A stretch of DNA of 37,725 nucleotides from the IMG/VR virus record IMGVR_UViG_2721755725_000007; one strand, written 5' to 3'. The notes below the pieces were generated by a model. The model searched no databases. It worked only from the letters and a program-made list of their open reading frames with translations, and was not told where the DNA came from. This stretch comes from a virus (Duplodnaviria > Heunggongvirae > Uroviricota > Caudoviricetes). How positions within the stretch are numbered: the stretch's first letter is position 1; the number at the start of each line of letters is the position of its first letter. This document shows positions 12,539 to 13,133 of the stretch, piece by piece. The position numbers were made by a program, and so were the translations under genes.

Positions 12539-12541
12539 GTG

Positions 12542-12757
12542 ATGAACCATGAAGAAATGAATCAGCGCTTCAGTCGTCTGGAAAATGAAATTGCTGAACT
12601 GAATAAAAAACTGTCGGCGCTGATGCCTTCTGAAGATGAAAAAAAACGCCGCGATGAGCAGTTTGCTGCGTTTGACGATTATTGTCGGAAAGTGATGAGC
12701 AGAAATCTCGCAGAGTGTTTCAGTATTCATAATGATAATTGCAGTGAGCTGGAATGA
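12542..12757 (+). CDS. hypothetical coiled-coil protein inserted between holin and endolysin
   Basis: ATG 12542 (GTG 12539) after GGGGAGAG; 71 aa, acidic, C-terminal cysteines; AT-rich relative to neighbours. Confidence 0.4.
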   Translation: MNHEEMNQRFSRLENEIAELNKKLSALMPSEDEKKRRDEQFAAFDDYCRKVMSRNLAECFSIHNDNCSELE

Positions 12758-13097
12758 GTGTAACCGGCCATCCTTTGTTGTATCCGGTGATGACGGGAAA
12801 ATCACCATATCAGAAAATGGAAAAGTAACACTGCCATCGCACCAGCACAGTGAGACGCTCATTGAATTTGCCATTGATTACCTGAAGAACAATAAAAAAC
12901 AGGGGCTGATGCAGCGCATTGGTCGTTGCATGGGGTATCTGCAGGTAGCCGCTGAGATTGAAGCGCTGGCCAGTGGTGCTGATAAGGATGCAATTGTGCG
13001 GGAGGCTCTTCTTCGTAATTTTAATACTCCACCCTTTAAAAAAGTGCCGGCTTACTGGCTTCATCCCGGACTGACTTATCTGAAAGTGCGTATTTAG
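12732..13097 (+). CDS. hypothetical protein inserted between holin and endolysin
   Basis: 121-aa ORF overlapping the previous ORF by 26 nt in another frame; no recognisable SD; no family recognised. Confidence 0.4.
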   Translation: MIIAVSWNECNRPSFVVSGDDGKITISENGKVTLPSHQHSETLIEFAIDYLKNNKKQGLMQRIGRCMGYLQVAAEIEALASGADKDAIVREALLRNFNTPPFKKVPAYWLHPGLTYLKVRI

Positions 13098-13133
13098 TGG
13101 GCCTGGGACAGCGGCTGAATATTTAATATATCC

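What the first reader, a model, noticed from the sequence alone, without database searches (positions are those of the whole stretch)
12539..13133. Two unassigned ORFs inserted inside the lysis cassette between holin and SAR endolysin
In lambda/21-type cassettes the endolysin follows the holin directly. Here about 600 bp separate them, carrying a 71-aa acidic coiled-coil-like ORF (12542-12757, good SD) and a 121-aa ORF (12732-13097) that overlaps it by 26 nt in another frame and has no SD. The segment is visibly more AT-rich than the flanking lysis genes, and the endolysin start also lacks a strong SD. This looks like a moron-type cargo insertion (lysis-timing regulator, superinfection exclusion or anti-defence) or a single gene split by a frameshift. 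I do not recognise either product.
Basis: partly seen in the sequence, partly recalled or inferred. Interest (0 to 1): 0.55.

Follow-up and report, generated by a model that had tools for sequence, protein, structure and literature searches.

The report
Frameshifted prophage gene between holin and endolysin
The two small ORFs are the halves of one 185-codon prophage gene of unknown function, broken by a 2-base deletion at the exact spot where sister strains carry an IS1203 insertion, so this is an ordinary decaying gene and not a new lysis-cassette cargo.

Summary
ORF1 (12542-12757) and ORF2 (12732-13097) lie between an S21-type class II holin and a SAR lysozyme, in a lower-GC segment, and the lysozyme start has no SD.

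They are one gene. Restoring 'GG' after 12755 gives the 185-aa WP_001015158.1 exactly. O157 EC4115 and O111 08-4377 carry that intact gene, the latter in an otherwise identical prophage. RefSeq already annotates the identical locus as a frameshifted pseudogene.

The gene is the DUF1327-less 'tail' form of the YdfR-family genes that often sit in or near this slot. It has a coiled coil plus a 113-aa C module, and long forms add an N-terminal DUF1327 domain. K-12 ydfR sits in the same slot but is the N domain only.

The C module gives a confident model with no known fold relative. The family is confined to Escherichia/Shigella/Salmonella prophages. Its function is unknown, and some Stx phage genomes (for example P13374) lack it.

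The deletion lies on the GGG that flanks a 1310-bp IS1203 in 32 O111 genomes. An imprecise IS excision scar is therefore my favoured origin (about 0.55). The prophage is degraded.

Low interest.

The parts
12323..12538 (+). Class II (phage 21 S-type) holin with dual starts (ATG 12323 and ATG 12332). Its 3' end carries the SD (GGGGAGAG, 12528-12535) that serves the next gene.
   Evidence: PF04971 at E 9e-33; annotated as a class II holin, WP_001072901.1, in the identical loci; sequence context.
12542..13097 (+). The whole pseudogene: a 185-codon YdfR-family 'tail' gene (coiled coil plus C module, no DUF1327 domain) carrying a 2-nt deletion.
   Evidence: Identical over 640 nt to EC4115 WP_001015158.1 except for the missing GG. 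Re-inserting GG restores the exact 185-aa protein. PGAP annotates the identical locus as a 'frameshifted' pseudogene.
12542..12757 (+). ORF1: codons 1-71 of the gene (acidic helical/coiled-coil part), ending at a premature TGA created by the frameshift.
   Evidence: Matches phrog_1085 positions 117-182 and phrog_36381 positions 1-71. Helices at residues 3-27 and 31-61 in the AF2 model; 10-residue block pLDDT falls from 83-88 (first 20 residues) to 73 and then 61 along these helices. pI 5.0.
12756..13097 (+). The true coding part of ORF2: the 113-aa conserved C module (ECNRPSF...LKVRI). ORF2's first 8 codons (12732-12755) are out-of-frame read-through of ORF1 sequence.
   Evidence: Matches phrog_1085 positions 184-296 at E 3e-79. 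Alignments A2-A4. AF2 pLDDT 89.2, pTM 0.80. dN/dS 0.16-0.41.
12755..12756 (.). Site of the 2-nt deletion (intact GGAAT-GGG-AGTG; window GGAAT-G-AGTG). It is also the IS1203 insertion site (3-bp duplication GGG) in sister O111 genomes.
   Evidence: deletion; 1310-bp IS1203 flanked by GGG at this trinucleotide in 32 complete genomes; a second insertion 2 nt upstream in a paralogous cassette.
13098..13133 (+). 36-nt AT-rich spacer with no SD in front of the lysozyme start. It travels with the C module in all insert-bearing cassettes examined.
   Evidence: The same spacer length occurs in L001 and L008. In insert-free phage P13374 the lysozyme ATG lies 5 nt after the holin stop codon and uses the holin-end SD.
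13134..13667 (+). Lysozyme with a hydrophobic N-terminus (SAR-type endolysin). It is intact.
   Evidence: PF00959 at E 3e-24; WP_000992150.1 in the identical loci.

Best explanation
The two ORFs are one late-operon accessory gene of a defective lambdoid prophage of the E. coli O111:H8 lineage, inactivated by a 2-bp deletion. The intact gene encodes a 185-aa cytoplasmic protein: an N-terminal acidic coiled coil followed by a 113-aa module (three-strand beta meander plus four helices). It is the version without a DUF1327 domain of the modular 'YdfR-family' genes. Those genes occupy the holin-lysozyme slot in E. coli prophages, or lie just upstream of the holin in Salmonella-type prophages.

In this window the deletion (GGAATGGGAGTG to GGAATGAGTG, at 12755/12756) shifts the frame at the coiled-coil/C-module boundary. 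The native SD can therefore still drive a 71-aa coiled-coil stub, but the conserved C module has no start signal and is presumably not made. This is a loss-of-function allele (inferred).

The deletion lies on the same GGG that is duplicated on either side of a 1310-bp IS1203 in the orthologous, otherwise identical prophage of 32 other O111 genomes. The most likely origin is IS1203 insertion followed by imprecise excision, with microhomology end joining promoted by the IS-excision enhancer known in O111:H8. I give this sub-claim about 0.55.

The biochemical function of the intact protein is unknown. My best guess, which is inference only, is a non-essential late-phase host-interaction factor and not a lysis component.
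For: One gene:
- phrog_1085 covers ORF1 at positions 117-182 and ORF2 at 184-296.
- EC4115 has one 185-aa CDS that is identical apart from the GG.
- Re-inserting GG restores that protein exactly.
- O111:NM 08-4377 has the intact CDS in a prophage with 0 mismatches over 12.6 kb.
- PGAP flags the identical locus as frameshifted.

A real allele: 3 exact and 1 near-exact complete assemblies carry it, from different isolates and sources.

Family and architecture:
- Long homologues of 263-329 aa carry DUF1327 at E 1e-34 to 1e-45, while the 185-aa form does not.
- K-12 YdfR matches only the N domain of the 296-aa form (81% over 73 aa) and shows no similarity to the 185-aa protein.
- ydfR sits between essQ and rrrQ.
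- Salmonella and metagenome relatives lie downstream of Q and upstream of the holin.

A coding gene under constraint: dN/dS is 0.16-0.41.

Dispensable: P13374, phi191 and many other Stx phage records have S directly followed by R.

IS link:
- The RM9322 junctions read GGAATGGG|IS1203|GGGAGTG.
- The same 80-nt junction is present at 100% in 32 genomes, including 11128.
- The window equals RM9322 on both sides with 0 mismatches.
- A second IS1203 lies 2 nt away in a paralogous cassette.
- IEE is encoded in O111:H8 and yields simple excisions and flanking deletions from a few nucleotides upward by microhomology joining (PMC9943667 and PMC9397093).

Decaying prophage: IS1203 copies and other frameshifted or partial genes are present.
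Against: - The direction of events is not shown. An intact allele exists in the same prophage background, so the deletion could have arisen directly from it by slippage in the GGG run, with the IS site a coincidence or a shared hot spot.
- I did not confirm that the strain of this window carries iee.
- A 71-aa stub might retain some activity.
- No expression data were examined.
Confidence: 0.9

Rival explanations
1. The 2-bp deletion arose by ordinary replication slippage or repair error in the GGG run. It is independent of IS1203, and the coincidence with the IS site reflects only a locally fragile or hot sequence.
For: An intact allele exists in an otherwise identical O111 prophage, so a one-step origin from it is the most parsimonious in number of events. 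The site is a short G run.
Against: A 2-nt loss from a 3-nt run is an unusual slippage product. The deletion falls on the exact 3 nt duplicated by IS1203 in 32 sister genomes, which is roughly a 3-in-558 chance within this gene alone. The lineage is reported to carry IEE, which produces such small flanking deletions.
Confidence: 0.38
2. These are two independent small cargo genes (a moron): an acidic coiled-coil protein and a separate 121-aa protein, for example a lysis-timing regulator, exclusion factor or anti-defence pair.
For: The segment has lower GC, is variably present between S and R, and ORF1 has a good SD.
Against: The two ORFs are contiguous parts of single proteins in PHROG profiles and in more than 100 homologues. 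The split allele is found in only 3 complete genomes exactly plus 1 with one mismatch, out of 5426, whereas over 600 cover the junction at 90-99% identity; every such row listed spans the undeleted 82 nt. ORF2 has no SD, and its first 8 codons are out-of-frame ORF1 sequence. There is no promoter or terminator in the insert and no PADLOC hit.
Confidence: 0.03
3. This is programmed +1 ribosomal frameshifting or recoding at GAA-UGA that makes the full-length protein from the split allele.
For: The shift needed is +1 at a stop codon, formally like prfB (sequence).
Against: P-site GAA cannot re-pair in the +1 frame (AAU), and there is no upstream SD-like stimulator. The unsplit gene is the norm and the split allele is confined to a few closely related genomes. 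The break coincides with an IS site.
Confidence: 0.01
4. It is a sequencing or assembly artefact: the true sequence is intact.
For: The change is an indel in a short G run.
Against: The identical 595-nt allele occurs in SD134209, 2009C-3675 and 2010C-3053, and with one mismatch in UTAK-13. These are complete assemblies of different isolates and sources. It is a 2-nt change in a 3-nt run, which is not a typical homopolymer error.
Confidence: 0.03

Closest known systems
YdfR (b1555) of the E. coli K-12 Qin cryptic prophage; Pfam DUF1327 (PF07041); NCBI 'YdfR family protein'
   Same: It occupies the same slot between a class II holin (essQ) and a lysozyme (rrrQ). The window gene is homologous (83-91% identity) to the C-terminal ~180 residues of 287-296-aa proteins that begin with a DUF1327 domain and that NCBI names DUF1327 domain-containing or YdfR family.
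   Different: The window gene lacks the DUF1327 domain altogether and has no detectable similarity to K-12 YdfR. K-12 YdfR corresponds only to the N domain of the long forms. The reported RNase E N-terminal-half binding maps to YdfR residues 1-72 (PMC13232886), so it cannot be transferred to this gene.
PHROG phrog_1085 (also phrog_36381, phrog_26186, phrog_15975): phage protein families of unknown function
   Same: ORF1 and ORF2 match consecutive parts of phrog_1085 at E 5e-23 and 3e-79. Several small PHROGs are evidently fragments of the same gene called in other genomes.
   Different: The profile is 296 positions long, and the window gene starts at position 117 and is frameshifted at 182/184.
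Stx2-converting phage 86 gp05 (YP_794052.1, 268 aa) and the S-R genes of Stx2_95, Stx2_12E129, Stx1_14040 and Stx2_499
   Same: Same position after S, same C module (or the same coiled coil), and the same SD-less spacer before R.
   Different: Their module content differs: with or without DUF1327, with or without a middle insert, or with an alternative C module. Phage 86 and 12E129 also carry a convergent ~104-aa partner gene (phrog_1853) that is absent here.
IEE-promoted excision of IS3-family elements (IS629/IS1203/IS600) in EHEC
   Same: The element is an IS1203 with a 3-bp duplication at exactly this site in sister genomes. The lineage (O111:H8) is reported to carry iee. Known products include simple excision and small flanking deletions joined at microhomology.
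   Different: Excision at this locus was not observed, only inferred. The joint uses at most 1 nt of microhomology. The presence of iee in this strain was not checked.

Membership tests
DUF1327 / YdfR family (PF07041) | Presence of the DUF1327 domain | tested here: not met
   No PF07041 hit for ORF1, ORF2 or the intact 185-aa protein, whereas the long homologues hit at E 1e-34 to 1e-45. BLASTP against K-12 YdfR gave no alignment.
DUF1327 / YdfR family (PF07041) | Homology to the non-DUF1327 remainder of multi-domain 'YdfR family' proteins | tested here: met
   83-91% identity over 98% of the query to 287-296-aa DUF1327-containing proteins; alignments A2 and A3.
DUF1327 / YdfR family (PF07041) | Position between a class II holin and a lysozyme in a lambdoid lysis cassette | tested here: met
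   Window layout; Qin essQ-ydfR-rrrQ. This is not universal: distant relatives lie upstream of the holin.
DUF1327 / YdfR family (PF07041) | Binding to the catalytic half of RNase E (reported for YdfR residues 1-72) | not testable with these tools
   Reported in PMC13232886. The interacting region is the domain that this gene lacks.
PHROG phrog_1085 | Significant match to the family profile | tested here: met
   ORF1 E 5.1e-23 (profile positions 117-182); ORF2 E 3.2e-79 (positions 184-296).
Moron (autonomous accessory transcription unit in a prophage) | Own promoter and terminator | tested here: not met
   No promoter-like or terminator-like site within 12539-13133. This was a consensus scan only, so weak elements could have been missed.
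Moron (autonomous accessory transcription unit in a prophage) | Presence/absence polymorphism between related phages, and deviant base composition | tested here: met
   S is directly followed by R in P13374, phi191 and others. GC is 0.45 against 0.55 in the flanks.
Programmed ribosomal frameshift gene | A conserved split with a slippery site or stimulator | tested here: not met
   The split occurs in 3 complete genomes exactly plus 1 with one mismatch, of 5426, and the unsplit gene in hundreds. There is no re-pairing option at GAA-UGA.
IS3-family (IS1203/IS629) excision scar | The same element, with a target duplication, at the identical site in close relatives | tested here: met
   GGAATGGG|IS1203 (1310 bp)|GGGAGTG in RM9322. 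The junction is 100% identical in 32 genomes, and the flanks are identical to the window.
IS3-family (IS1203/IS629) excision scar | iee and an active IS1203 transposase in the same strain, with descent from an IS-bearing ancestor | not tested
   IS1203 copies are present in the window. iee is reported for O111:H8 in the literature but was not searched for in this strain, and no phylogeny was built.
Holin/antiholin or spanin-type lysis proteins | Transmembrane segment or lipobox | tested here: not met
   The product is hydrophilic (GRAVY -0.60) and the model has no hydrophobic helix of membrane length.

The most novel reading that the evidence does not exclude
The intact gene family may be a phage late-phase effector that acts on host RNA decay or on lysis timing. 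The family consists of a coiled coil plus a 113-aa module with no known fold relative, fused in long forms to the RNase E-binding YdfR domain and sometimes paired with a conserved convergent ~105-aa gene. The GGAATGGG site within it may be a genuine IS1203 hot spot that switches the gene off and on through IEE-mediated insertion and excision. The window would then be a snapshot of that switch stuck in the off state.
Probability: 0.1. Interest if true: 0.5.

Novelty: already known. Interest (0 to 1): 0.2.

Why it matters
For annotation, the segment should be called one frameshifted pseudogene, as RefSeq already does for the identical locus, and not two hypothetical proteins or a new lysis-cassette cargo.

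Three by-products may be of modest use. First, the 'YdfR family' splits cleanly into an N domain (K-12 YdfR, the reported RNase E binder) and a separable coiled-coil plus C-module part that also exists alone. Anyone following up the RNase E interaction should know this. Second, the C module gives a confident model with no fold relative, and the family is very narrow in distribution. Third, the locus shows three allele states in otherwise identical O111 prophages: intact, IS1203-interrupted and a 2-nt scar. That makes it a compact natural test case for IEE-mediated excision footprints.

Tried and rejected
- **Function by homology.** Pfam, NCBIfam, PADLOC and a PDB sequence profile gave nothing significant for the 185-aa protein.
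- **Full-length model.** The AF2 model of the full 185 aa was poor (pLDDT 54.7), so I did not use it for fold search.
- **SlyX.** A weak Pfam hit of ORF1 to SlyX (E 0.21) was intriguing, because SlyX and YdfR were both reported as RNase E binders. hhalign gave a probability of 0.9%, so I rejected it as coiled-coil noise.
- **Antisense ORFs.** The ORFs at 12368-12874 and 12810-13247 have no PHROG hits, and I treat them as spurious.
- **RNA families.** Rfam found nothing inside the insert.
- **Taxonomic reach.** A scan of species-representative genomes found relatives only in Escherichia and Shigella. Exhaustive HMM search of 1.84 billion representatives gave only 40 hits.
- **Literature.** Searches by accession, and for a gene 'between holin and endolysin' in Stx phages, found nothing on this gene.
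- **Programmed frameshift and artefact.** Both were considered and rejected (see rivals).
- **Direction of IS events.** I could not establish it from prophage SNPs, because the three alleles sit in identical backgrounds.

Full report
**1. Observation**

ORF1 runs 12542-12757 (71 aa; a GTG at 12539 is also possible). ORF2 runs 12732-13097 (121 aa). They overlap by 26 nt, and ORF2 is in the +1 frame relative to ORF1.

The upstream neighbour is a class II, phage 21 S-type holin at 12323-12538 (PF04971, E 9e-33). The downstream neighbour is a lysozyme at 13134-13667 (PF00959, E 3e-24).

ORF1 is preceded by GGGGAGAG at 12528-12535. ORF2's ATG and the lysozyme ATG have no SD. GC is 0.41 for ORF1 and 0.45 for the whole insert, against 0.55 for holin, lysozyme and Rz. 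ORF1 is acidic (pI 5.0) and predicted helical. The description is therefore accurate.

**2. The two ORFs are one gene**

PHROG family 1085 has a 296-position profile. ORF1 matches positions 117-182 and ORF2 matches 184-296, and phrog_36381 likewise spans the junction.

A megablast of the insert against 5426 complete E. coli genomes found 3 exact 595-nt matches and dozens of 597-nt matches at 99.7%. In O157:H7 EC4115 the 597-nt version is a single 185-aa CDS, WP_001015158.1. It is identical to the window over 640 nt except that the window lacks GG in GGAATGGGAGTG. Re-inserting GG after 12755 restores that protein exactly.

PGAP annotates the identical locus in SD134209 and 2010C-3053 as a frameshifted pseudogene. 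An 80-nt junction query shows the deleted allele in only 3 genomes exactly and 1 with a mismatch. More than 600 genomes cover the junction at 90-99% identity, and every such row listed spans the undeleted 82 nt.

These are complete assemblies of different isolates and sources, and the change is 2 nt in a 3-nt run. It is therefore a real inherited allele and not an artefact.

There is no case for programmed frameshifting. The required +1 shift at GAA-UGA has no re-pairing option, and the unsplit gene is the norm.

**3. What the gene is**

The window is a lambdoid prophage late region: Q, methyltransferase, esterase-like DUF6645 protein, DUF1378, DUF826, S, this gene, R, Rz/Rz1, terminase and so on. 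It belongs to the O111:H8 EHEC lineage and carries IS1203 copies and other broken genes.

The S-R slot is variable. It is empty in P13374, phi191 and many other Stx phage records. Elsewhere it holds genes of 161, 185, 213, 263, 268 or 329 codons.

Aligning these genes shows modules:
- an N-terminal DUF1327/YdfR domain, present only in the long forms (E 1e-34 to 1e-45);
- a coiled coil;
- either the C module found here (ECNRPSF...LKVRI) or an alternative one.

K-12 Qin has essQ-ydfR-rrrQ. K-12 YdfR equals the N domain of the 296-aa form (81% over 73 aa) and has no similarity to the 185-aa protein. The window gene and K-12 ydfR are thus complementary pieces of the long 'YdfR family' architecture. 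The window gene is not a DUF1327 protein.

The family is narrow. An exhaustive profile search of 1.84 billion representatives gave 40 hits, from Escherichia, Shigella, Salmonella and unnamed metagenome contigs. The distant members keep a diverged DUF1327-like N domain and the conserved C-module motif. They lie downstream of Q and upstream of the holin, not between S and R.

The gene is under moderate purifying selection (dN/dS 0.16-0.41). It has no promoter-like or terminator-like site of its own.

**4. Structure and function**

The only experimental lead for the wider family is a 2026 report. It finds that K-12 YdfR residues 1-72 bind the catalytic half of RNase E and may bind RNA (PMC13232886). 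That region is absent from the window gene.

I therefore commit only to this: the intact product is a soluble, probably oligomeric, non-essential late-phase accessory protein. A role in host RNA metabolism or lysis timing is speculation.

In the window allele, the SD-led 71-aa stub may be made. The C module, which has no start signal before Met60 of ORF2, is presumably not made.

**5. How the break arose**

In O111 RM9322 the orthologous gene is interrupted by a 1310-bp IS1203. The junctions read GGAATGGG|IS|GGGAGTG, which is a 3-bp duplication of the very GGG that is reduced to G in the window. The same 80-nt junction is 100% identical in 32 complete genomes, including the reference strain 11128.

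The window is identical to RM9322 on both sides of the site, with 0 mismatches over 6.9 and 7.7 kb. It is also identical to O111:NM 08-4377, which has the intact allele, with 0 mismatches over 12.6 kb.

A paralogous cassette in a second prophage of SD134209 carries another IS1203 2 nt upstream, with the duplication ATG. The site is therefore an insertion hot spot.

O111:H8 is reported to encode the IS-excision enhancer. IEE promotes excision of IS3-family elements and leaves either simple excisions or flanking deletions from a few nucleotides upward, by microhomology end joining (PMC9943667 and PMC9397093).

I therefore favour insertion followed by imprecise excision (about 0.55) over independent slippage (about 0.38). 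The direction of events is not established, because the backgrounds carry no informative SNPs.

**6. Side effect on the lysozyme**

In insert-free phages the lysozyme ATG lies 5 nt after the holin stop codon and uses the holin-end SD. In all insert-bearing cassettes that SD serves the inserted gene, and the lysozyme follows a 36-nt AT-rich spacer without an SD. Whether lysozyme translation depends on ribosomes arriving from the upstream gene, which here stop 377 nt earlier, is untested.

**7. Verdict**

This is an ordinary pseudogene of a catalogued but uncharacterised prophage gene family, already flagged as frameshifted in RefSeq. Interest is low. The modular dissection of the YdfR family and the IS1203 hot spot with its likely scar are minor but usable by-products.

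Noticed in passing
window 9293-9548: Rfam matches above gathering score to two sRNAs between the tRNA-like element and the esterase gene: STnc100 (9293-9485, +, 144.5 bits) and the anti-GcvB sponge AgvB (9487-9548, -, 96.5 bits). There is also a sub-threshold AsxR match.
   Followed up: no
window 9148-9207: PGAP annotates a 71-nt tRNA-Met here in sister genomes. ARAGORN finds no tRNA anywhere in the window, and Rfam tRNA matches only model positions 7-64 at 37.3 bits. It is possibly a degenerate phage tRNA.
   Followed up: partly
window 13791-13964: A 57-aa ORF with a hydrophobic segment fills the gap between lysozyme and Rz and ends 1 nt before the Rz start. It matches phrog_6632 (E 1.4e-29, unknown function) and is not annotated by PGAP in the sister genomes. 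A terminator-like hairpin (13758-13790) lies just upstream.
   Followed up: partly
L004 1685-1999 (-), L005 1548-1862 (-), L013 4807-5124 (-), L012 2378-2713 (-): A conserved convergent ~104-111-aa gene (phrog_1853; about 40% identity between E. coli and Salmonella versions) lies immediately downstream of the long YdfR-family gene in several phages. This suggests a two-gene module. It is absent from the window.
   Followed up: partly
L025 2365-4194 (SD134209, second prophage): A paralogous holin-gene-lysozyme cassette carries its own IS1203 2 nt upstream of the window's deletion site (duplication ATG), plus a 45-nt in-frame deletion between GATGAGCAG repeats. The same junction is seen in 7 genomes.
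   Followed up: partly
window 1-1256; SD134209 L003: An IS1203 copy lies at the left end of the window. Strain SD134209 has one more copy inside gpU that the window lacks, and the sister annotation shows a frameshifted minor tail protein L and a partial tail assembly protein T. The prophage is decaying.
   Followed up: no
window about 4236-4798 (-): A ParD/ParE type II toxin-antitoxin pair lies on the opposite strand in the early region, according to the annotation of the near-identical SD134209 locus.
   Followed up: no
window 12255-12284: A 13-pair hairpin followed by a T run lies just upstream of the holin's dual start codons (12323 and 12332). It could be a regulatory structure for start choice rather than a terminator.
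   Followed up: no
L010 2683-3312: In E. coli ECMA0423 the homologous S-R gene is frameshifted near its 3' end and the following lysozyme is also broken. This is another independent decay of the same cassette.
   Followed up: no
P0085 (117 aa, cluster of 143 members): The representative starts MSWNGGNRPSF. That implies a different 2-nt-short variant at the same junction (GGAATGGGGGTAAC) in another draft genome. It could be a further event at the hot spot or an assembly error.
   Followed up: no
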